Sequence record: MN850616.1
DNA length: 40,308 nt
Direction: 5' to 3' (one strand)
Source: Escherichia phage buks
In this document: positions 7,216 to 40,307 of the stretch, piece by piece
How the letters are laid out: the number at the start of each line of letters is the position of its first letter
Numbering within the stretch: the stretch's first letter is position 1
Notes under the pieces: model-generated
The model's database searches: none
The model's input: the letters and a program-made list of their open reading frames with translations, nothing else
What the model was told of the DNA's origin: nothing
Translations under genes and position numbers: made by a program

Positions 7216-7632
7216 CTACTTTTCCTGCAATTGACGCAACTGTTCGTGGTGGAATACGACTACATGTTCCGCCAGGCGCTTATATTGGGTGAGAAGAGTC
7301 TCAAGATTTTCCTTAGTGAACTCATCATCGAGACTCCAGCCATTCACCAATTCGAGAGCCAATTGTCGGTTTAGGTCTCCTGCCGCGTCTTCCATTTTTA
7401 AATTGTATTCTGAGAAGTCTTTTTGCTCTTCGCATTTATCCCGAAGCGGTTTTAATTTACCTACCGCCGCTCGGTACGCCAGGGTGAAGGCACGCATAGC
7501 TTTAACCGCGACATCGGCCTCCGGGGAGACAACGTTCAACCATTCTCCTGAATCTGTACCGTCTTTTAAAGGGATCGGCATGCGCGCGCCTTTCTCGGCT
7601 TCGGCTTCGTAGTAAAAATCGCTAAGTTTCAT
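7216..7632 (-). CDS. Tail assembly chaperone (gpG-like)
   Basis: 138 aa acidic protein immediately upstream of the T-like ORF and tape measure gene; ATG 7630-7632; ends ...QLRQLQEK with GGAAAAG just before the stop codon. Confidence 0.55.
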   Translation of the reverse strand: MKLSDFYYEAEAEKGARMPIPLKDGTDSGEWLNVVSPEADVAVKAMRAFTLAYRAAVGKLKPLRDKCEEQKDFSEYNLKMEDAAGDLNRQLALELVNGWSLDDEFTKENLETLLTQYKRLAEHVVVFHHEQLRQLQEK

Positions 7633-7738
7633 AGTAATGCCCTTTGGTTAGTCGGTTACTGGTTGGTAGTTGCACCAGGCGGGAACCACCCGCTTTTCCG
7701 GTGCGACCGTAGACGCCAAATAAGAATAACAAAATAGC

Positions 7739-7767
7739 TTGCATAACCGTTAATAGTGTTCTATTAT
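7739..7767 (+). promoter_or_regulatory. Sigma70-like promoter TTGCAT-N17-TATTAT with overlapping palindromic operator-like site
   Basis: -35 at 7739-7744, -10 at 7762-7767; 16-bp site TAATAGTGTTCTATTA at 7751-7766; conserved CAACTAAACA 9 nt downstream of the -10. Confidence 0.55.
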
Positions 7768-7801
7768 CTCTACGTCAACTAAACAATATGAGGTTAAGAA
7801 C

Positions 7802-7981
7802 ATGAGCGTTTTTATCGGTATTATCGCGTTTATCTATTTCATTCCGTTCCTGGTAGCCTTGCTACGTAATCATAAAGCCAAATTAGGAATATTCGTATGC
7901 AATCTTTTACTGGGGTGGATTCTTCTGCCGTGGGTAGGCGCTCTCATCTGGGCCTGTAACTCTAATGTTAATGGTAAATAA
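7802..7981 (+). CDS. Small membrane peptide, Imm-like superinfection immunity family (59 aa)
   Basis: Hand-translated ORF missing from the track (<60 aa): MSVFIGIIAFIYFIPFLVALLRNHKAKLGIFVCNLLLGWILLPWVGALIWACNSNVNGK. GAGGT RBS 8 nt upstream; two hydrophobic helices with the ...GW..L.W.GALIWA pattern I recall for superinfection-immunity peptides. First gene after promoter 7739-7767. Confidence 0.55.
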   Translation: MSVFIGIIAFIYFIPFLVALLRNHKAKLGIFVCNLLLGWILLPWVGALIWACNSNVNGK

Positions 7982-8043
7982 TCTGGCTAAATTAAACTTA
8001 CATTATTAGAATCAGATTTGTCTTAAACAATCAGGAAATAAGC

Positions 8044-9198
8044 ATGGTCACTCGCAAAATAACAGATGAACAGTTGCAACAAGAGCTAAATGCTGGCCTC
8101 GGCCCTACTGAAATAGCCAAAAAGTATAATATGTCCCGCCGTAATGTTCAGCTTCGTTCCGCGCGCCTGGCAAAGAAAGGAGTTGGCCACGGGCGCGACG
8201 TAAGCCACCTTGTGCCAGATGGGTATAAGATTAAGGGTACGTCGTCACTGGTAGATGAGTTCGGTAACACGAAACTTCAGTGGGTTAAGACTGACGCTGA
8301 CGCCGAGCGCCAGGTCGAGCTGATGCGAGCCGTTGTGGATGAGATGAAAAAAGATTTACCTAAATATAAACCTGTCACTTTGCCCAAAAATGGCACAGAT
8401 GACGACTTATTAAATCTCTACACAATAACGGACCATCACATTGGATCGCTGGCGTGTCGAGAAGAAGGCGGGGATGATTACGATACCACAATCGCGGAAT
8501 CTCTCGCAGTTGACTGGTTCAACAGTGCGGTTTGTATGAGCCCGCAGAGCGGCGAATGTATCATTAACTTCTTAGGGGACCAAATGCACTACGATGGCAT
8601 GAAGGCAATGACCCCCATGAGCGGTCATATTCTTTCTGCTGATAGTCGCCTGTTTAAAATGATACGTACCGCCATTAAGGTTATCAAGCTGGCTGTCTCG
8701 CTGTGCTTGCGAAAACACAAGAAGGTTAAACTTCTTATCTGTGAGGGTAACCACGACCTTAGTTCTTCCCTGTGGCTCCGAGAGATGTTCTACGAGGTGT
8801 ATACAAATGAGCCTCGCGTCGAGGTTAACCGGGAGGTGTCGCCGTATTATGCGTATAAGTTCGGGGATTGTATGATTTCAGCACATCACGGGCATTGTTC
8901 TAACTTTACTAAAGTAGAGCAGTCTATAATAGGTAAGTATCGGGAGATGTACGGGCAGTGTAAGTTCACATATGTCCATACGGGTCACCTCCACCACCGG
9001 GCGGTTAAAGAGACTAATCTTCTAATTGTTGAGCAACACCAGACATTAGCGGCTAAAGATGAGTATTCTAGTAAAGGCGGTTATTATTCAGGTAGAAGCG
9101 CAAATGTGATTACATACCATAAACGTTACGGGGAGGTGTCCCGCATAAGTATACCTGTTGAAATGCTGCGAGACATAAACCCCAAATCAACATACTAA
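8044..9198 (+). CDS. HTH domain fused to calcineurin-like metallophosphoesterase
   Basis: 384 aa; N-terminal HTH-like segment (GPTEIAKKYNMSRRNVQLRSARL); metallophosphatase motifs in order: TITDHHIG, GDQMHYDG, EGNHD, SAHHGH, HTGHLHH. Confidence 0.7.
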   Translation: MVTRKITDEQLQQELNAGLGPTEIAKKYNMSRRNVQLRSARLAKKGVGHGRDVSHLVPDGYKIKGTSSLVDEFGNTKLQWVKTDADAERQVELMRAVVDEMKKDLPKYKPVTLPKNGTDDDLLNLYTITDHHIGSLACREEGGDDYDTTIAESLAVDWFNSAVCMSPQSGECIINFLGDQMHYDGMKAMTPMSGHILSADSRLFKMIRTAIKVIKLAVSLCLRKHKKVKLLICEGNHDLSSSLWLREMFYEVYTNEPRVEVNREVSPYYAYKFGDCMISAHHGHCSNFTKVEQSIIGKYREMYGQCKFTYVHTGHLHHRAVKETNLLIVEQHQTLAAKDEYSSKGGYYSGRSANVITYHKRYGEVSRISIPVEMLRDINPKSTY

Positions 9199-9213
9199 AA
9201 TGTAGGTGAAAGG

Positions 9214-9714
9214 ATGGATTGGAGTGAGGTTTTTAGCTACAAAAACGGCGTCCTATACTGGAAAGTCAAATCATGTCGCCGTAACGATGTGAATGTAGGG
9301 GATGTGGCCGGGAGTTTGTGTAAAAACGGCTATTGGTATGTCATGTTCGGTAACCGTAAGTTTAAAAGGTCTAGGGTGGTGTATGAGATGTTCTCAGGTA
9401 AGATTCCAAAAGGATTTGTCATAGACCACACCAACCATGATACCTGTGACGACAGAATTGAAAACCTGTCATGCAAATCCAGAAGGGACAACATGGTTAA
9501 CGTGAAAAGGCGCAAAGATAATACCTCAGGAGTTACGGGTGTGGCGCGGAAAGGAAAAGCTAAGTGGAGAGCTTATGCCGTTGTCAACGGTAAGCAGATT
9601 AGTAAAACATTTGACAGAATAGAGGACGCTTTCGCGGAAAGAATTTACATGTCTGTGGCTAATAGGTTCCACATAAATCATGGACTGACAACATTCAACA
9701 ACGGCTATAAATAG
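9214..9714 (+). CDS. Free-standing HNH homing endonuclease with AP2-type DNA-binding domain
   Basis: 166 aa; HNH-type motif (VIDHTNHDTCDDRIENL) followed by AP2-like segment (SGVTGVARKGKAKWRAYAVVNGKQISKTF); AGGTGA RBS. Confidence 0.8.
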   Translation: MDWSEVFSYKNGVLYWKVKSCRRNDVNVGDVAGSLCKNGYWYVMFGNRKFKRSRVVYEMFSGKIPKGFVIDHTNHDTCDDRIENLSCKSRRDNMVNVKRRKDNTSGVTGVARKGKAKWRAYAVVNGKQISKTFDRIEDAFAERIYMSVANRFHINHGLTTFNNGYK

Positions 9715-9723
9715 GGCATAAAG

Positions 9724-9954
9724 ATGACTAACAAATACAATCGAACAATGACAAATACTGACGGAGATAGCATTACCTGTGATGTGTACGACGTTCTGAG
9801 GGCATTTGATATCCGCGACCCGGCACTACAGCATGCGTTGAAGAAACTGTTGTGTATGGGATTGCGGGGGCACAAGGACACAGGAACCGACTTAGCAGAA
9901 GCAATTGAAAGTCTGGAGAAGTTACGGAAATACCGTAGTAATATTGATGAGTGA
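9724..9954 (+). CDS. Hypothetical protein
   Basis: 76 aa ORF followed by a rho-independent terminator; no recognisable motif. Confidence 0.45.
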   Translation: MTNKYNRTMTNTDGDSITCDVYDVLRAFDIRDPALQHALKKLLCMGLRGHKDTGTDLAEAIESLEKLRKYRSNIDE

Positions 9955-9955
9955 G

Positions 9956-9982
9956 AAAAAGGCCCCTTTCGGGGCTTTTTTT
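9956..9982 (+). terminator. Rho-independent terminator
   Basis: Stem GGCCCC / GGGGC with TTTC loop followed by a 7-nt T-run, right after the 9724-9954 gene. Confidence 0.7.
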
Positions 9983-10064
9983 ATCGTCACGATAAAGAAT
10001 CTGATTTGAACGATAAGAATGTTCGAAGTTAAATATATCTACACCAACAAGAGGGGATGAAACC

Positions 10065-10736
10065 ATGAACGAATTAATGAATGTTAGTGAAGCACAAACC
10101 ATGTCCAGCCGTGAGATTGCGGAATTGACGGGGAAAGAACACGACAACGTACGACGCGATATATTAAAAATGGCACAGGAACTTTCCCTCAATTTTGAGG
10201 AAAAGGTTTTGCCTTCAAACGGTGGCAGACCAAGTAAGGTATTTCTCTTAGACAAAGAAAATACATTAATCCTGATTTCAGGGTACAGCATCAAAATGCG
10301 CGCTGCCATCATCCGCCGTTGGCAGGAACTGGAGTCACAAGCGAGCAAACCATCCTTACCGGTGCCCAAGACAATGGGGGAGGCTTTAAGGTTGGCTGCG
10401 GACTTGTGGGAGGAGAAAGAACGCCTTGCGCTTGAGAACAAGGAAATGGCACCAAAAGCTGATGTCTACGACCGCATCATCGACAGAAATAACTTGTACA
10501 ACGCGACGCAGGTTGCCCAGAAGTTCGGTCAATCTGCCGTGTGGATGAATAAACAACTTGAACAATTTGGCGTATACAATCGCTCCGTAAAACGCGGTCG
10601 TGTCTTCCAGCAATGGTTCATCGATAAGGGTTACGGCATTATGCGTGAAACAGAAACTGGTCATTCACAGGCTATGTTCTTCGCTGAAGGTGAAATGTGG
10701 ATTATCGGTAAGTTAACGGCAGAAGGTTTGATTTAA
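10065..10736 (+). CDS. Rha-family phage regulatory protein / antirepressor-like (Rha N-domain plus KilAC-like C-domain)
   Basis: 223 aa; N-terminal ...MSSREIAELTGKEHDNVRRDILKM... resembles the Rha regulatory domain; AGAGGGGA RBS; followed by a bidirectional terminator. Confidence 0.65.
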   Translation: MNELMNVSEAQTMSSREIAELTGKEHDNVRRDILKMAQELSLNFEEKVLPSNGGRPSKVFLLDKENTLILISGYSIKMRAAIIRRWQELESQASKPSLPVPKTMGEALRLAADLWEEKERLALENKEMAPKADVYDRIIDRNNLYNATQVAQKFGQSAVWMNKQLEQFGVYNRSVKRGRVFQQWFIDKGYGIMRETETGHSQAMFFAEGEMWIIGKLTAEGLI

Positions 10737-10764
10737 AACTAAGGCCCCTTTCGGGGCCTTTTTC
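10737..10764. terminator. Bidirectional rho-independent terminator between convergent genes
   Basis: AAGGCCCC-TTTC-GGGGCCTT hairpin flanked by A-run upstream and T-run downstream; sits between the Rha-like gene (+) and the major tail gene (-). Confidence 0.7.
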
Positions 10765-11934
10765 TTAGGCGTACTTAATGCGCTGGATAACAATTGAAGA
10801 CTGGAACTGGTTACCGGTTGCCTGTCCCTCAAGAGAAAGGGTGACAGATTCGGGACCACCGATTTCCGGAGTTGCTGATGTCAACGAAGCGCGTTTTAAG
10901 GTGAAACTCATGGCACCGTCTGGGCCGTTCAGAACAGAAGATACCTCCATTTGCGTTTCGTTCAGGAATTTATTCAATAACGTCATGTCGTACAGCTTAC
11001 CCGCCAACGAGAAGGTGTTAGCCGCGCGGCCACGTTCGACAAATGCCACGCTATTATTCCCTAACTCGAACTGTGCGGACGCGCTGTTGTCGTTAGTAAT
11101 GGTGAACGTGTCGATAAGTTTAAGCGGAGCGGCGCCGTCATAGGCGGATACGTCAACCGATGCAAACGGACGGGCGCTAAAATTGGTCGTGAAATCTGAA
11201 CCACTCGGCAGTGCTTGTAGGATTTCCTGATTAAGACCAATGAACGGGAATGAGCCTGTAACCATCGCGTTAACGGCTTGTTCGATGGTGAACCCTGTAA
11301 ATTCAACACCACGAGTTATGATGTACGAATCAGGATTTCCGCATTTACCTTTCAACCATGTCAGGATTGAATAGGTTTTACACAAGTTACCGGTTTCAAG
11401 TTTATCTGCGATACGCAAATCGGCTTGGGCGTCTGATTCAGCGGTAAGGGTGTGCTGGATGCCCGCTCCGGTTATAACTGTAGCTGTGGCAGCCGTGACC
11501 ATGAACGCTTTGTTGTTATTTCCGGATAAACCGTCGAATTGCACTAGGTCGCCTACCTCAACGCCATCTGTTACAAAGCTGCCGGTGGTGCGTGTGAAAG
11601 TTTTCGCCACCGGGTCTACGGTAACGCTGATTCCAGATTTAGTGGAACCTGCTACCCAGGAACTGGTCATTGCGCCAGCAAGCAACTCATCCTGGCTTTC
11701 CGCGCTAAGTTCAATAGCATATTCACCAGTTACCTGACGGTTACCGGTGCGGATAGATGATGTTTCACGGCTGCCGTCCAGTTCATTAGAGATGAGGGCG
11801 TCGCGGGTTACGGCGGGAATACCCCCAGTGTTGCGCAGTGGTTGCCATACCGGGTTAGCGGGTGTTACCCCCGGCGTCGTCTCAAGAACGTAAAACTGCG
11901 CGGCCATCGCGCCCTTATATGGTTGTAACGCCAT
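10765..11934 (-). CDS. Major tail protein
   Basis: 389 aa ORF that is the last structural gene before the chaperone/tape-measure block (separated only by the plus-strand island); call by synteny. Confidence 0.55.
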   Translation of the reverse strand: MALQPYKGAMAAQFYVLETTPGVTPANPVWQPLRNTGGIPAVTRDALISNELDGSRETSSIRTGNRQVTGEYAIELSAESQDELLAGAMTSSWVAGSTKSGISVTVDPVAKTFTRTTGSFVTDGVEVGDLVQFDGLSGNNNKAFMVTAATATVITGAGIQHTLTAESDAQADLRIADKLETGNLCKTYSILTWLKGKCGNPDSYIITRGVEFTGFTIEQAVNAMVTGSFPFIGLNQEILQALPSGSDFTTNFSARPFASVDVSAYDGAAPLKLIDTFTITNDNSASAQFELGNNSVAFVERGRAANTFSLAGKLYDMTLLNKFLNETQMEVSSVLNGPDGAMSFTLKRASLTSATPEIGGPESVTLSLEGQATGNQFQSSIVIQRIKYA

Positions 11935-21652: not shown

Positions 21653-22924
21653 TTAAAGTGCGAAAGTAACCGGGATATGGGATACAGGTTTAACCAACGG
21701 CATTTCGTAGGCGATAGGGTATCCTGTTGCGTCGTTCTGGTGGTCGTTGCCGCTTGTTTTATCCGGCACACCGTTTTTATCGTAAGCCTGTTGCTCCAGG
21801 CAACGCGCGGTAACCGGGCAAGCCTGCTCGTTGACCATTAATCTACCAGACTCCAGCGCTTTATTCACCGATGCTACACGGTCTTTAACTGCAGGGTTAA
21901 CTGATTTCGCACGTATCTCGAAACCTGCGTTCTGTAATTGGGCAATATCTGACGTACTGGCATCAGTCGATTTACGGTTCTTGCCGCTGGCGTCCGGGTA
22001 CATGACGATGTGGTGGCCGTGTCGTTTCCACCGCTCGGTAATCTCCCTGACCACATCTGGGGTGTCGAACATATCCACCAGCTCGGCTACCGCGTGCCAG
22101 ACATACTCACGCTGAACGTATACGGTGCTAGCCATATGCCCGACGTTGAAGTCCTGACCGATATACAGCGTTTCTCCAGGTTGTATAGTCTCTCGACTGC
22201 TGTTCTTGCGTCGGTCGTAAGCATAATACACGCTGCCGGATGTCAGGTTGACAAATTCACCATCGATGTAGGCATCGATTAACTGGCCCGGATACGTATC
22301 CCGCAGCGACTGCACATAATCTTCCGGTAGAAAGGGATTGGATGTTGTCGAGGCCTGAATCATTTCATAGCCTGGTTTCTTTTTTACAGCCCATCTGTCG
22401 TGCACAAAACGGAAGCCTTCCGGGGTCGTAAAGACCGAGACTGTATTGGCAGGTTTCGGGGTAATCGGCCGATATGTACGCGGCAACTGACGGTTACGGG
22501 CGATAACTTTGTTCCAGGCGTGCTCGGCGTGGTCTTTATTTAACGTGTCCAACTCGTCTATTTTTGCGCGGAACGATTCGTAGCCAACAATTCGCGCGGG
22601 GTTATCCAATGTACGAAGGACAAAATCCCCGAATTGCCCGGACGATGTATAGATTATGTTGTCAGATTTATTGTACTTGTAGCGAATACCCCAATCGGAT
22701 AGCTTCTCTTCCATACGAGGGGCGAGGATAAGACGCACAAGGTCATACGTCGGTTCGTACATGGCAATAAGGGAATCGCTACCGCCCTCCATGCTGTCGA
22801 GTAGGGCGGAGTTGCACATGACCTCTGATTTACCTGTGCCGAAGCCAGCGACGAAGGCCGGGAATTTACAATGCAGATTAAGGAACGCGCCTTGCGGTTC
22901 CGTAGCCGTTATATCAACGTTCAC
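21653..22924 (-). CDS. Terminase large subunit
   Basis: 423 aa; N-terminal ATPase P-loop-like FVAGFGTGKSEV; GTG start with AAGGTGG RBS; follows small terminase gene with 11-nt overlap. Confidence 0.85.
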   Translation of the reverse strand: MNVDITATEPQGAFLNLHCKFPAFVAGFGTGKSEVMCNSALLDSMEGGSDSLIAMYEPTYDLVRLILAPRMEEKLSDWGIRYKYNKSDNIIYTSSGQFGDFVLRTLDNPARIVGYESFRAKIDELDTLNKDHAEHAWNKVIARNRQLPRTYRPITPKPANTVSVFTTPEGFRFVHDRWAVKKKPGYEMIQASTTSNPFLPEDYVQSLRDTYPGQLIDAYIDGEFVNLTSGSVYYAYDRRKNSSRETIQPGETLYIGQDFNVGHMASTVYVQREYVWHAVAELVDMFDTPDVVREITERWKRHGHHIVMYPDASGKNRKSTDASTSDIAQLQNAGFEIRAKSVNPAVKDRVASVNKALESGRLMVNEQACPVTARCLEQQAYDKNGVPDKTSGNDHQNDATGYPIAYEMPLVKPVSHIPVTFAL

Positions 22925-23420
22925 CGGACACCACCTTAATAGTTACTTCGCTAATTGGTTCGTCGCGCGTTTCTTCCACAACAGTTTTATTAAGCCCAAG
23001 TTTTGCTGCGGCAAACGTAGCAGATATCCCGGCGGCACCGGTCTCCGTGAAATACGCCTCTTCCAGGGCTTGTGCCGTCTCATATGCTTCGGCGAATGCG
23101 GGAACCTCTCGGAGCCATAGCTTGATAATCGGGATGGTTACACCGATGTGTAATGCGAAGCGGGCCAGCGACGGCGGTTTGTCCTGGATAAGCGGGCGTT
23201 CGTCGCCTTTAGACGTGGGTACGAGTTCCCATGACGTGCGGTCGAAGAACCGGATTAATTCGTCGCAATAGTCCGGGTCCCATAGTTCGGCGGAATGCCG
23301 GGATGACTGGTACAGACTTTGTTTACCACGCGGACGTTTACGGCGACGGTTTGCGTTAACCGCTTCTTCGTGCGCGGCAGCCACTACTTCGGCGTCAGGC
23401 TGTTTTAATTTGAGTTTCAT
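22914..23420 (-). CDS. Terminase small subunit
   Basis: Basic N-terminus plus putative HTH region; directly upstream of TerL. Start set to ATG 23418-23420 (MKLKLKQ...) with AGAGAGGA RBS; the track start at 23459 has a weaker RBS. Confidence 0.55.
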   Translation of the reverse strand: MKLKLKQPDAEVVAAAHEEAVNANRRRKRPRGKQSLYQSSRHSAELWDPDYCDELIRFFDRTSWELVPTSKGDERPLIQDKPPSLARFALHIGVTIPIIKLWLREVPAFAEAYETAQALEEAYFTETGAAGISATFAAAKLGLNKTVVEETRDEPISEVTIKVVSGER

Positions 23421-23553
23421 GCAATCCTCTCTTAAATGCGTATGACCATCATAGCGCATCAGACACCCCCTGAGCGTCTATTAAGGATTGTACAGGGGAA
23501 TGAAGGCCTGTGTACAGAAAAGCCCACAGAAGCGGGCTTGGTGGTAGGCTATT

Positions 23554-37653: not shown

Positions 37654-37845
37654 ATGAAATACGAATATGACCGCAAACCAGCACGTGACATCGTACCGGG
37701 TGACATGATTTTCAATGTTAAGACGCGTAGGCCTGTTGCCGTAGATACAGTATTTGTTGAGTCTAACGGTAAACTGGTTATTGAAGATGCAACCGGTAAC
37801 GTCACGGCGTTCGGGCGGAAGGAATTGGTTCTGGTGGCGAAATGA
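37654..37845 (+). CDS. Hypothetical protein (63 aa)
   Basis: ATG 37654 with AAGGAA RBS; stop overlaps helicase start (ATGA). Confidence 0.45.
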   Translation: MKYEYDRKPARDIVPGDMIFNVKTRRPVAVDTVFVESNGKLVIEDATGNVTAFGRKELVLVAK

Positions 37846-40307
37846 GTAAATTCACTAGAAGGCCTTATCAAAAGCTCATGACCTCGTTCATGCTGCGACA
37901 CCCGCGCTGTAATATCTGGGCAAGTATGGGAAGCGGCAAGTGCCTGAAACGCGGGACTGAAGTTATTATGTTTGACGGTACGACCAAGAAAGTAGAAGAC
38001 GTCATCGTCGGTGACGTGCTTATGGGGCCAGATTCAACGCCTAGAAATGTACTGTCTCTCGGTAGAGGCCGGGAGATGATGTACGAGGTTAAACCGCGAA
38101 AAGGCGAGTCATATACGGTAAACGAAAGCCATATATTATCACTGCGAACTACTACAGGTATCGCAAAAGGTTCATGGCCAGATAACACCGTTTTCGACAT
38201 AAGCGTCCGCGACTGGCTTAAGTTGCCGAAATATGTAACCGGGCCTAATGGGTATCTTAAGGGTTGGCGGGTACCTGTCGATTTTCCAAGGAAAGAGCAG
38301 GACGAGGCTTTATTGCCTCCGTACCTTATGGGGCTATGGCTGGGCGACGGTACTTCGTCGTCTGGGGCCATAACATCAGGAGAGAACGAAAAGGAAATAA
38401 GGGCGTATCTTGAGTCGTACGCAGCACGTAATGGGATGCAAATACGAAAAGAAGGACTTACATGGAGTATATCTCACGGCAACACAGGTCATAAGAAGCA
38501 CGGGTTTACACACGCGCTGAAATCGGCGGGTGTCCTGAACAATAAGCATATACCGCACAATTACAAATGCGGCGACCGGAGACAGCGTTTAGAGTTGCTG
38601 GCAGGGCTTCTGGATAGTGATGGTTACTGCGATTTGTCTAAAGCAGGTTTTGACTGGATTTCGGTAAGCGAGCGACTCGCTGATGATTTTTGCTATCTAT
38701 GCCGTTCTCTTGGTTTCGCAGCTTACAAGAAGAAAACTCGTAAGCGTTGCGCAAACACTGATGTTTGGGGGGATTACTTCCGCGTATCGGTATCAGGCGA
38801 TTTTTCTGATGTACCTTTCGTGCGTGGCCGCCACCAGAATTTACCGAAGCGTAATATTAATAAAAACGTACTTAACGTTGGAATAGAATCTATAACCCCG
38901 GTCGGCGTAGATGATTATTACGGCTTCACTATCGACGGTGACCACCGGTTTCTATTAGGCGACTTCACCGTAACGCACAACACAAGCTCGACAATGTGGG
39001 TGCTTAACCGGTTATTCCGTAATGGTCAGCTTAATGATGACGACCGGGTATTAATCCTCGCCCCGTTGCGTGTTGCGTCGGGTACGTGGCCCGCGGAACA
39101 AACTAAGTGGGGGTTCCCTTGCCTTCGTGTCATCGATGCAACCGGTTCGGAGAAGCGCCGCATAGCGGCGCTGGAGTCGGACGCTAATGTGGTGTGCACT
39201 AACTACGAAGTTATCGAGTGGCTGATTGATTACTACGGCAAAGACGACTGGCCTTTTACTGTTATCGTGGCCGATGAGAGCACGAAACTGAAATCTTTCC
39301 GTAGCCGTTCCGGCGGCAGCAAGAGAGCGAAGGCGCTTAGTAAAGTGGCGTTCGGCAAGGTTAAGCGTTTCATTAACCTGACCGGTACACCATCACCAAA
39401 CGGCCTCAAAGACTTGTGGGGTCAGAACTGGTTCATCGACGCGGGTGAACGCCTTGGGTCTTCATACACGGCCTTTACCGATAGATGGTTTAACTCGGTA
39501 CAGAAAGGCAAATCTGCGATGGCGCGGGAGTACCATGCTCGCCCAGGCGCGGATAACGAGATTCACCAGAAGATGAAGGATATCAGCCTTACCATTGATG
39601 CCGCCGAGTGGTTCGGTTGTGAAGCACCGGTTATTGTACCGGTTGAGATTGACCTGCCGAAGAAAGCGCGTCAAGCCTACATCGATATGGAGGAGAAGTT
39701 ATTCGCGGAACTGGAGAGCGGAGAAGTTGAAGCGGCTAACGCCGCCGCTAAAACGGCTAAGTGCTTGCAGATTGCTTCCGGTGCCGTGTATGTGTCGGGG
39801 CCGGATGGTGAAGCAACGAAAGACTGGGAGAAAGTGCACGACGCGAAACTCGATGCGTTAGAGTCCATTGTCGAGGAGTTGCAGGGTGCGCCGCTGCTGG
39901 TGGCCTATCAGTTCAAGCACGAACTTGAGCGCATTCTTAGGCGATTCCCCCAGGCGCAGGCGTTTGCGAAAGGTGCTAAGGGTAATAAGCAGATGGAATC
40001 TTGGAACCGCGGGGAAATCGAGATTTTGTGCGTGCACCCTGCATCGGCGGGCCATGGTTTGAATTTACAGGACGGCGGGCATCATCTGGCGTTTATTTCG
40101 CAAGGCTGGAACCTGGAGCACTATTTGCAGGTTGTCGAGCGTATAGGTCCTGTACGCCAGAAACAGGCTGGCCACGAGCGTCCAGTGTTCCTGTATCACA
40201 TAGTCGCTAAAGACACGCTGGATGAGGTCGTTGCCGCGCGTACGGACGAGAAAAAATCTGTCCAGGAAGAGTTGCTTAATTATATGAAGAGACGAGGTAA
40301 GAAATGA
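37842..40307 (+). CDS. SF2 (SNF2/DEAD-like) helicase interrupted by an in-frame intein; extein ~474 aa
   Basis: Continuous 821-aa ORF; Walker A GSGK is split from its Thr by a 347-aa insert; after the insert: TSSTMW...LILAPLRVASGTW...VIVADESTKLK...NLTGTPSPN... Confidence 0.85.
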   Translation: MSKFTRRPYQKLMTSFMLRHPRCNIWASMGSGKCLKRGTEVIMFDGTTKKVEDVIVGDVLMGPDSTPRNVLSLGRGREMMYEVKPRKGESYTVNESHILSLRTTTGIAKGSWPDNTVFDISVRDWLKLPKYVTGPNGYLKGWRVPVDFPRKEQDEALLPPYLMGLWLGDGTSSSGAITSGENEKEIRAYLESYAARNGMQIRKEGLTWSISHGNTGHKKHGFTHALKSAGVLNNKHIPHNYKCGDRRQRLELLAGLLDSDGYCDLSKAGFDWISVSERLADDFCYLCRSLGFAAYKKKTRKRCANTDVWGDYFRVSVSGDFSDVPFVRGRHQNLPKRNINKNVLNVGIESITPVGVDDYYGFTIDGDHRFLLGDFTVTHNTSSTMWVLNRLFRNGQLNDDDRVLILAPLRVASGTWPAEQTKWGFPCLRVIDATGSEKRRIAALESDANVVCTNYEVIEWLIDYYGKDDWPFTVIVADESTKLKSFRSRSGGSKRAKALSKVAFGKVKRFINLTGTPSPNGLKDLWGQNWFIDAGERLGSSYTAFTDRWFNSVQKGKSAMAREYHARPGADNEIHQKMKDISLTIDAAEWFGCEAPVIVPVEIDLPKKARQAYIDMEEKLFAELESGEVEAANAAAKTAKCLQIASGAVYVSGPDGEATKDWEKVHDAKLDALESIVEELQGAPLLVAYQFKHELERILRRFPQAQAFAKGAKGNKQMESWNRGEIEILCVHPASAGHGLNLQDGGHHLAFISQGWNLEHYLQVVERIGPVRQKQAGHERPVFLYHIVAKDTLDEVVAARTDEKKSVQEELLNYMKRRGKK
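37941..38981 (+). mobile_element. Intein with LAGLIDADG homing endonuclease domain, inserted in the helicase P-loop
   Basis: Starts with Cys codon TGC 37941-37943 right after GSGK; ends ...FTVTHN (Asn codon 38979-38981) followed by Thr; internal LAGLIDADG-like motifs LMGLWLGDGTSS and LLAGLLDSDGYC; 1041 nt, in frame. Confidence 0.8.

What the first reader, a model, noticed from the sequence alone, without database searches (positions are those of the whole stretch)
9214..9714. Second, unrelated homing endonuclease: free-standing HNH-AP2 gene in addition to the intein LAGLIDADG domain
The genome carries two selfish nuclease types: a free-standing HNH endonuclease with an AP2-like DNA-binding domain in the accessory island, and the LAGLIDADG domain inside the helicase intein. 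Free-standing HNH genes often mark recent insertions and can create marker exclusion against related phages.
Basis: partly seen in the sequence, partly recalled or inferred. Interest (0 to 1): 0.4.

Follow-up and report, generated by a model that had tools for sequence, protein, structure and literature searches.

The report
Free-standing HNH-AP2 homing endonuclease gene
The gene at 9214-9714 is an ordinary, already-annotated selfish phage nuclease gene (HNH cutting domain plus AP2-type DNA-binding domain) that always sits just after one DNA-repair exonuclease gene. It travels between phages together with part of that gene and has been deleted again in many close relatives.

Summary
The window is Salmonella phage blauehaus (Jerseyvirus). 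ORF 9214-9714 (+, 166 aa) matches Pfam HNH_3 (E 6e-16). Its family profile and its predicted structure match the nicking homing endonuclease I-HmuI in the N-terminal part and plant AP2/ERF domains in the C-terminal part. The SNF2 helicase does carry an intein with a LAGLIDADG domain.

The catalytic motif is the family-typical H-N-N variant (D71, H72, N84, N93, N96), so the missing last His is not a refutation.

"Recent insertion" needs refining:
- The gene is the right-hand end of a roughly 1.4 kb cassette (exonuclease catalytic domain plus HNH, 8349-9722). This cassette is at least 99% identical in about 140 Jersey-type records, and 95-97% identical in E. coli phage BUCT823, whose flanks are only about 70-80% identical.
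- Relatives without the gene are of two kinds. Some carry a different, widespread exonuclease allele with no trace of HNH. About 40 records carry deletion scars of HNH.
- Homologs at 58-66% identity all lie directly 3' of the same exonuclease gene in T1-like phages, and their histories disagree with that gene's.
- dN/dS is 0.02-0.06.

Best reading: an active, locus-specific free-standing homing endonuclease of a known kind. Cleavage activity and target are untested. Interest is low to moderate.

The parts
9214..9714 (+). Free-standing HNH(HNN)-AP2 endonuclease gene, 166 aa (blauehaus_36, 'putative endonuclease')
   Evidence: ORF; HNH_3 E 6e-16; phrog_99 E 2e-49; annotated in MT074473; dN/dS 0.02-0.06
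9204..9209 (+). Shine-Dalgarno-like AGGTGA, 4 nt upstream of the ATG
   Evidence: read from the sequence
9370..9501 (+). His-Me finger catalytic core, residues 53-96. D71-H72 at 9424-9429, N84, N93 and N96 (boxes IDHTNHD, DDRIENLS, RRDNMVN)
9520..9660 (+). AP2/ERF-like DNA-binding domain, residues ~103-149 (strands 110-113, 117-124, 127-133; helix 136-149)
9238..9249 (+). Left copy of the imperfect direct repeat TACAAAAACGGC. With 9694-9705 it bounds the 456-bp in-frame deletion seen in about 40 relatives
   Evidence: alignment with SE-W109 and S55; junction search, 40 records; coordinates
9694..9705 (+). Right copy of the direct repeat (TTCAACAACGGC)
9206..9215 (+). Left microhomology (GTGAAAGGAT) of a second, independent ~429-bp deletion seen in FSL SP-101
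9635..9644 (+). Right microhomology (CGGAAAGAAT) of the FSL SP-101-type deletion
8349..9722 (+). Exchangeable cassette: catalytic domain of the exonuclease gene (type-1 allele) plus the HNH gene. Type-2 genomes carry ~821 bp of a divergent exonuclease C-terminus here and no HNH
   Evidence: homology breakpoints at 8348 and 9723/9724 in eight loci; boundary alignments; elevated identity versus flanks
8044..9198 (+). Upstream gene: 384-aa HTH + metallophosphoesterase 'DNA repair exonuclease' (phrog_704), the conserved left neighbour of this HNH clade
9724..9954 (+). Downstream 76-aa gene (phrog_2452, unknown function). In type-2 genomes its ATG overlaps the exonuclease stop (ATGA)
37941..38981 (+). 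Intein (C34..HN380, +1 Thr) in the P-loop of the SNF2 helicase, with LAGLIDADG motifs at 38325-38351 and 38595-38624. This is the other selfish nuclease named in the finding
   Evidence: Pfam Hint, LAGLIDADG_3, Hom_end; translation and coordinates

Best explanation
The ORF encodes a free-standing homing endonuclease of the HNN-AP2 type. An I-HmuI-like His-Me finger nuclease domain (general base H72, metal ligands D71/N93) is fused to an AP2-fold DNA-binding domain that supplies sequence specificity. It has no promoter of its own that I could detect. It appears to be expressed from the rightward accessory operon: Imm, exonuclease, HNH, 76-aa gene, Rha/Ant.

Inferred mechanism: during co-infection the enzyme nicks or cuts the exonuclease/76-aa-gene region of a related phage that lacks it. 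Recombinational repair from the HNH-bearing genome then copies the HNH gene together with the adjacent exonuclease catalytic domain (8349-9722). This spreads the cassette and excludes the competitor's allele. Once the resistant allele is fixed, the nuclease gene is dispensable and is lost by repeat-mediated deletion.

Shown here: domain identity, conserved catalytic residues, purifying selection, presence/absence polymorphism at a fixed site, cassette-level lateral transfer, and independent losses. Inferred: catalytic activity, nick versus double-strand break, the position of the target, and that cleavage rather than ordinary recombination or selection drives the spread.
For: Identity:
- HNH_3 E 6e-16; phrog_99 E 2e-49; PADLOC 'homing endonuclease' model E 5e-6.
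- Catalytic D71/H72/N84/N93/N96 are conserved.

Functional maintenance: dN/dS is 0.02-0.06 at dS 0.13-0.32.

Mobility:
(a) In E. coli phage BUCT823 and a metagenomic phage, the exonuclease C-terminal part and HNH are 91-97% identical to blauehaus in nucleotides. Imm, the exonuclease N-terminal part, the 76-aa gene and the major tail gene are 69-85% identical. The right edge of the tract falls at the HNH stop.
(b) The cassette is >=99% identical in 142 records. The alternative allele occurs in 551 records with graded identity.
(c) The near-identical cassette is joined to at least three different left-flank haplotypes. Each of these is also found joined to the alternative allele.
(d) All five metagenomic homologs at 58-66% identity lie directly 3' of an exonuclease homolog in T1-like phages. 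A related contig has the exonuclease followed directly by the next gene with no HNH.
(e) HNH and exonuclease histories disagree. The exonuclease C-terminus is 99% identical where HNH is 74-83% identical. A type-1-like exonuclease carries an HNH of the other group. A 40%-identity HNH lineage sits at the same site.

Dispensability and loss: there are two independent deletions with microhomology junctions, and a methyltransferase cassette inserted into one scar.

The pattern matches published accounts of HNN-AP2 genes and of nuclease genes at exchange boundaries (PMC2248197, PMC10448857).
Against: - No cleavage assay, no mapped target site and no cross data exist.
- Pfam AP2 does not hit this protein directly.
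- The deletion-scar allele, which cannot drive itself, is also found with several left-flank haplotypes. Recombination at this border therefore happens without a resident HNH, or the deletion recurs. The low-diversity sweep could instead reflect selection on the exonuclease allele with HNH hitch-hiking.
- The closest solved relative, I-HmuI, is a nickase that also cuts its own intron-containing allele (PMC3428280). Classic double-strand-break homing is therefore not assured.
- No partially converted (chimeric) exonuclease alleles were seen that would locate a break site.
Confidence: 0.62

Rival explanations
1. The cassette spreads by ordinary homologous recombination and selection on the type-1 exonuclease allele, or on the island as a whole. 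The HNH gene is a passenger. It may be enzymatically active but does not drive the exchange.
For: Breakpoint 8348 coincides with the boundary between the conserved N-terminal HTH part and the catalytic domain of the exonuclease, a typical mosaic junction. Scar-bearing genomes without a functional HNH are also linked to several flank haplotypes. Other accessory genes (a methyltransferase, a 77-aa membrane ORF) use the same intergenic site.
Against: A passenger would not be expected to show dN/dS of 0.02-0.06. Nor would it recur at exactly this site next to three different exonuclease allele types with an incongruent history. The right edge of the transferred tract is the HNH stop codon itself.
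Confidence: 0.22
2. A domesticated nuclease or DNA-binding protein that serves the phage, for example by attacking competitor or host DNA as part of the superinfection-related island, or by AP2-mediated regulation. It would not be a self-propagating element.
For: It sits in an operon with a superinfection-immunity gene and a Rha/Ant regulator. It is under strong purifying selection. AP2 domains have been co-opted as regulators (PMC10448857).
Against: It has been lost repeatedly without loss of viability: 40 scar records, FSL SP-101, and all type-2 phages. Catalytic residues are retained. Its position is tied to one gene in unrelated phage backgrounds rather than to the island.
Confidence: 0.1
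3. A terminase-associated HNH needed for genome packaging (HK97 gp74-like).
For: Many siphophages encode such an HNH (PMC3592412).
Against: The gene lies about 12 kb from the terminase genes at 21653-23459. It belongs to HNH_3 and lacks the Cys dyads. It is absent from many viable close relatives.
Confidence: 0.01
4. An inactive, decaying relic of a former homing endonuclease.
For: Homing endonuclease genes commonly degenerate after fixation (PMC2248197), and deletions are frequent here.
Against: The ORF is intact in about 114 records. All catalytic residues are conserved. There are 26 synonymous versus 3 non-synonymous differences to the most divergent copy.
Confidence: 0.05

Closest known systems
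HNN-AP2 free-standing endonucleases of phages (Xanthomonas phages Xp10/OP1/Xop411, T1, T5, RB phages; Magnani et al. 2004 as cited in PMC10448857 and PMC2248197)
   Same: Same two-domain architecture: N-terminal HNN His-Me finger with D-H, DNR, NL and (E/D)N boxes and no Cys dyads, then a C-terminal AP2 domain. Free-standing small ORF, sporadic distribution, and degeneration or loss after fixation (PMC2248197).
   Different: The Xanthomonas phage genes were described as scattered at varying positions. This clade is tied to one site, directly 3' of the phrog_704 exonuclease gene, in Jersey-like, BUCT823-like and T1-like phages.
I-HmuI (SPO1 intron-encoded HNH nicking endonuclease, PDB 1u3e)
   Different: I-HmuI is intron-encoded, and its C-terminal DNA-binding part consists of other modules, not AP2. 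Here the gene is free-standing and the DNA-binding module is AP2. The match covers only the N-terminal ~115 residues.
T4-type free-standing homing endonucleases with co-conversion of flanking genes (SegF, SegG, MobE), and 'nuclease genes at boundaries of genetic exchange' in ICP1 and other phages (PMC2790892, PMC2988022, PMC10448857)
   Same: An intergenic nuclease gene next to a conserved DNA-metabolism gene. A tract of high identity ends at the nuclease gene. Part of the neighbouring gene is replaced allelically.
   Different: Those T4 enzymes have mapped cleavage sites and measured marker exclusion; nothing is measured here. Seg proteins are GIY-YIG. MobE is an HNH without a recognised AP2 domain (last point from my own knowledge).
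Plant and apicomplexan AP2/ERF DNA-binding domains (AtERF1 2gcc, TEM1 7et4, WRI1 7wq5)
   Same: Three-stranded sheet packed on a helix, with the conserved G-V...W.A motifs.
   Different: In those proteins the domain acts in transcription factors without a nuclease. Here it is the targeting module of a nuclease. Pfam AP2 does not reach significance on this sequence.

Membership tests
HNH_3 / I-HmuI-like His-Me finger endonucleases | Sequence match to the family model above the curated threshold | tested here: met
   PF13392 at 58.2 bits versus cut-off 24.8, E 6e-16
HNH_3 / I-HmuI-like His-Me finger endonucleases | Conserved catalytic Asp-His, structural Asn and metal-binding Asn (H-N-N variant) | tested here: met
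   D71, N84, N96 invariant and H72, N93 >=90% conserved in 35 homologs. They align to I-HmuI D74, H75, N87, N96, N99. The roles assigned to the I-HmuI residues rest on my own recollection of the 2004 structure paper.
HNH_3 / I-HmuI-like His-Me finger endonucleases | beta-beta-alpha-metal fold | tested here: met
HNH_3 / I-HmuI-like His-Me finger endonucleases | Metal-dependent DNA nicking or cleavage | not testable with these tools
   Requires purified protein
AP2/ERF DNA-binding domain | Match to Pfam AP2 (PF00847) on this protein | tested here: not met
   No hit at E<=1, although 11 of 52 homologs carry a precomputed PF00847 hit
AP2/ERF DNA-binding domain | Profile-level homology to proven AP2 domains | tested here: met
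   Family profile versus PDB: WRI1 E 1.4e-4, TEM1 E 3.7e-4, profile positions 91-154
AP2/ERF DNA-binding domain | Three-stranded antiparallel sheet packed against one helix | tested here: met
Free-standing homing endonuclease gene | Independent ORF between genes, not inside an intron or intein | tested here: met
   Own SD and ATG, intergenic. In type-2 genomes the two flanking genes abut with an ATGA overlap.
Free-standing homing endonuclease gene | Presence/absence polymorphism at one fixed site among related genomes | tested here: met
   Jersey-type phages: 114 records with the full gene, 40 with a scar, and type-2 genomes with none. T1-like contigs occur with and without it at the same site.
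Free-standing homing endonuclease gene | Horizontal transfer: history incongruent with flanking genes | tested here: met
   The cassette is 91-97% identical where flanks are 69-85% identical. HNH and exonuclease identity matrices disagree.
Free-standing homing endonuclease gene | Site-specific cleavage of the nuclease-less allele, followed by unidirectional gene conversion | not testable with these tools
   Needs cleavage mapping and phage crosses
Terminase-associated HNH (HK97 gp74-like) | Encoded next to the terminase/cos region and required for packaging | tested here: not met
   About 12 kb from the terminase genes; absent from viable relatives
Intein with LAGLIDADG homing endonuclease (helicase, second element of the finding) | Hint splicing domain, LAGLIDADG domain, Cys1 and terminal His-Asn followed by a Thr/Ser/Cys, in-frame in a conserved host motif | tested here: met
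   Hom_end_hint E 9e-23 and LAGLIDADG_3 E 7e-7. Sequence reads GSGK|C34...THN380|T, with two LAGLIDADG motifs.

The most novel reading that the evidence does not exclude
This HNH-AP2 lineage may be a homing endonuclease specialised on the 3' end of the phrog_704 'DNA repair exonuclease' gene across at least three phage groups: Jerseyvirus, BUCT823-like and T1-like. Its mobile unit would include the catalytic domain of that exonuclease. The selfish nuclease would then drive whole-domain allelic replacement in a host DNA-repair gene. The exonuclease might also help process the break.
Probability: 0.25. Interest if true: 0.5.

Novelty: already known. Interest (0 to 1): 0.27.

Why it matters
In itself the gene matters little. 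It is a routine member of a well-described family, and identical sequences are already labelled 'HNH (homing) endonuclease' in public records.

The comparative picture is more useful. Cultivable Salmonella phages offer, at one locus, all stages of the homing-endonuclease life cycle: a naive allele, an occupied allele, two kinds of deletion scar, and a scar re-used by a methyltransferase cassette. There is also a cross-genus transfer of the cassette. This makes the locus a convenient natural system for testing whether HNN-AP2 nucleases drive marker exclusion and mosaicism in Jersey-type phages, which are used in phage therapy and biocontrol.

Tried and rejected
- A single-sequence search of the PDB found nothing; a family profile was needed.
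- Pfam AP2 gave no direct hit.
- The consensus promoter scan found no + strand promoter in 7600-10900, only a bidirectional terminator at 10741-10760. I treat the gene as co-transcribed with its neighbours, which is an inference.
- The PADLOC scan gave only 'homing endonuclease' models for HNH and nothing for its neighbours, so there is no sign of a known defence system.
- The packaging-HNH idea was rejected on position and dispensability.
- I looked for partially converted exonuclease alleles that would point to a break site. None appeared among the listed hits; all type-1 hits covered the whole query.
- Magnani et al. 2004 (PMC520932) is not held in the library, so it is cited only through PMC10448857 and PMC2248197.
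- My first reading of the HNH-less relatives as 'empty target sites' was rejected once the alignment showed remnants of the ORF.

Full report
**What the window is.** A 3-kb stretch around the finding is 100% identical to Salmonella phage blauehaus MT074473 (Jerseyvirus, Guernseyvirinae) and 97-99% identical to many Jersey-type phages. In that record the ORF is blauehaus_36, 'putative endonuclease'. In other records the same sequence is labelled 'HNH endonuclease' or 'HNH homing endonuclease'.

**The observation.**
- ORF 9214-9714 (+) encodes 166 aa from an ATG. AGGTGA lies 4 nt upstream. The ORF starts 15 nt after the stop of a 384-aa gene and ends 9 nt before the ATG of a 76-aa gene.
- It lies in a rightward-transcribed island: superinfection-immunity gene, 384-aa 'DNA repair exonuclease' (phrog_704), HNH, 76-aa gene, Rha/Ant regulator. 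The island is embedded among leftward tail genes and closed by a bidirectional terminator at 10741-10760.
- Pfam HNH_3 matches residues 53-95 (E 6e-16). phrog_99 'HNH endonuclease' matches residues 1-165 (E 2e-49).
- The other half of the finding also holds. The SNF2 helicase (37842-40307) contains a Hint domain and a LAGLIDADG domain. The intein runs from Cys34 to His-Asn380, is followed by Thr, and splits the P-loop GSGK|T.

**Domain anatomy.**
- Pfam AP2 does not hit the protein directly, and a single-sequence PDB search found nothing.
- An alignment of 35 homologs used as a profile hits I-HmuI (1u3e, E 1e-9) with its N-terminal two-thirds. Positions 91-154 hit the AP2 domains of Arabidopsis WRI1 and TEM1 (E 1e-4 to 4e-4).
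- D71, N84 and N96 are invariant, and H72 and N93 nearly so. They align with I-HmuI D74, H75, N87, N96 and N99.
- The motif is therefore H-N-N, without Cys dyads. This is exactly the 'HNN-AP2' type described for Xanthomonas, T1, T5 and RB phages (PMC2248197) and noted as a homing-endonuclease family in PMC10448857.
That is the family norm, not evidence against a nuclease.

**Relatives with and without the gene.** The full-length gene occurs in about 114 phage records, nearly all at >=99% nucleotide identity. Relatives that lack it fall into distinct classes.

1. *Deletion scar A.* About 40 records (SETP3, SE-W109, S55, LP31 and others) keep the first 36 nt and the last 9 nt of the ORF, joined at the imperfect direct repeat TACAAAAACGGC / TTCAACAACGGC (9238-9249 and 9694-9705). 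This is a 456-bp in-frame deletion that leaves MDWSEVFSYKNGYK*.
2. *Deletion scar B.* FSL SP-101 keeps only the last ~73-78 nt, joined at GAAAG microhomology (9206-9215 and 9635-9644). This is a second, independent deletion.
3. *Re-used scar.* One genome (IMG/VR 2597490042, 43,221 bp; the same junction is in phage SE2) has a 1179-bp DNA-methyltransferase cassette inserted inside the class 1 scar.
4. *Naive allele.* Eight loci, including f18SE, Jersey and SETP7-like phages, lose homology to the window at 8348 and regain it at 9723/9724. Position 8348 is codon ~102 of the exonuclease gene, at the end of its conserved HTH part. Position 9723/9724 is the ATG of the 76-aa gene. In between they carry ~821 bp encoding a different exonuclease catalytic domain (~49% aa identity). 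Its stop overlaps the next ATG, and there is no trace of HNH.

The closest HNH-less genomes are therefore secondary losses. The truly naive site exists only with the alternative ('type-2') exonuclease allele.

**The gene is part of a moving cassette.**
- The type-1 exonuclease C-terminal part is found at >=90% identity in 167 records, of which 142 are >=99%, almost all from Salmonella phages.
- The type-2 allele occurs in 551 records of Jersey-, Kaguna-, Dhillon-virus and other phages. Its identity is graded from 60 to 100%, as expected for the older, vertically inherited state.
- Among HNH-bearing Jersey phages the cassette (exonuclease C-terminal part plus HNH) is 99.2-100% identical. The exonuclease N-terminal part (91.5-98%) and the Rha/Ant and tail genes (87-99%) vary more.
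- In E. coli phage BUCT823 and in a metagenomic phage, the exonuclease C-terminal part is 95% and 91% identical and HNH 97% and 94%. Imm, the exonuclease N-terminal part, the 76-aa gene and the major tail gene are only 69-85% identical. Identity drops sharply at the HNH stop codon and rises somewhere between ~8160 and ~8350 on the left.
- Synonymous divergence is 0.13-0.32 in HNH and 0.21-0.51 in the exonuclease C-terminal part, against 1.6-1.8 in the N-terminal part.
- The near-identical cassette is attached to at least three different N-terminal haplotypes, each also found attached to the type-2 allele. Recombination at its left border has therefore happened repeatedly.
- The cassette is AT-richer than the genome: HNH 42.9% and exonuclease C-terminal part 44.9% GC, versus 49.7% for the window.

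**Site specificity beyond Jersey phages.**
- All five metagenomic homologs at 58-66% identity lie 55-76 nt downstream of an exonuclease homolog in T1-like phage contigs. There the gene order is exonuclease, HNH, DUF7244, T1 holin, lysozyme.
- A related contig has the exonuclease followed directly by DUF7244, with a 41%-identical HNH elsewhere, after a helicase gene.
- A further phage has a 40%-identical HNH after a type-1-like exonuclease.
- Histories disagree. Three contigs with 99% identical exonuclease C-termini have HNH proteins only 74-83% identical. A contig with a type-1-like exonuclease carries an HNH of the T1-phage group.
- More broadly, homologs occur in 1074 phage records at 1364 places, often several per genome.

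**Is the protein maintained?** Yes. Against the two divergent copies there are 12-26 synonymous but only 3 non-synonymous differences, giving dN/dS of 0.02-0.06.

**Interpretation.**
- Identity as an HNN-AP2 free-standing homing endonuclease gene is well supported.
- The comparative pattern is what homing with co-conversion of the neighbouring gene predicts: fixed site, sporadic presence, incongruent history, a low-diversity cassette in diverse flanks, a transferred tract that ends at the nuclease gene, and repeated loss. It matches the published picture of nuclease genes at boundaries of exchange (PMC10448857) and the invasion-fixation-decay cycle discussed for HNN-AP2 genes (PMC2248197).
- Three things remain inferred: that the enzyme is active, where it cuts, and whether cleavage rather than ordinary recombination or selection on the exonuclease allele drives the spread.
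- Two facts counsel caution. The scar allele is also linked to several flank haplotypes. The nearest solved relative is a nickase that also cuts its own allele (PMC3428280).
- A packaging role is excluded by position and dispensability. A decaying relic is unlikely given the selection signal.

**Novelty.** The gene and its label are already in public records, and Jerseyvirus papers mention homing endonucleases and inteins at annotation level (PMC8425127, PMC4599075). The family is well described. What I add is comparative detail: the cassette boundaries, the scars, the tie to the exonuclease gene, and the cross-genus transfer. Interest is therefore low to moderate.

Noticed in passing
window 37941-38981: The helicase intein splits the Walker A P-loop (GSGK|C...HN|T). 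It has two LAGLIDADG motifs with their acidic residues (LMGLWLGDG, LLAGLLDSDG), so the intein nuclease may be active. I did not survey its presence or absence in relatives.
   Followed up: partly
L006 4193-5371 (IMG/VR 2597490042; same junction in phage SE2 JQ007353): A 1179-bp cassette is inserted precisely inside the HNH deletion scar (…GGTTTTTA | insert | GCTACAAAAACGGCTATAAATAG). It contains a terminator-like hairpin and an N4/N6 DNA methyltransferase (SPPY motif). The methyltransferase reads as two ORFs (94 and 142 aa), so it is frameshifted or carries a sequencing error.
   Followed up: partly
L052 4128-4361: A type-2 Jersey-like genome has a 77-aa hydrophobic (membrane-like) ORF with no PHROG match between the exonuclease gene and the 76-aa gene. 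This is a third kind of occupant of the same intergenic site.
   Followed up: no
window 8044-8348 versus 8349-9198: The exonuclease gene is itself mosaic. Its first ~100 codons (HTH-like part) are shared by both allele classes, while the catalytic domain comes in at least three types (~43-49% aa identity). Pfam has no model that hits this protein; only phrog_704 and phrog_284 do.
   Followed up: partly
L065 5573-6064 (- strand): The T1-like contig carries a second HNH_3 gene (39% identical to the query) on the opposite strand just after the lysozyme gene. These phages therefore hold several HNN-type nuclease genes.
   Followed up: no
phage records PP389045.1 and PP935706.1: A record named Pseudomonas phage vB_PsS_LDT325 (43.8 kb) encodes a 100% identical HNH protein. 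A 164,642-bp 'Salmonella phage vB_SE130_2P' record matches the island at four places. These look like a mislabelled host and a concatenated assembly.
   Followed up: no
window 10741-10760: A perfect 8-bp-stem GC-rich hairpin with T-runs on both strands sits between the Rha/Ant gene and the converging major tail gene. It is a likely bidirectional terminator closing the island.
   Followed up: no
UPWr_S phages (PMC8425127; H38): That paper lists a homing endonuclease 'gp63' as accessory in UPWr_S2-4. In the UPWr_S4 record, however, the 99.8%-identical copy of this HNH gene is annotated 'hypothetical protein'. Some Jersey phages may therefore carry a further, different homing endonuclease gene.
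   Followed up: no
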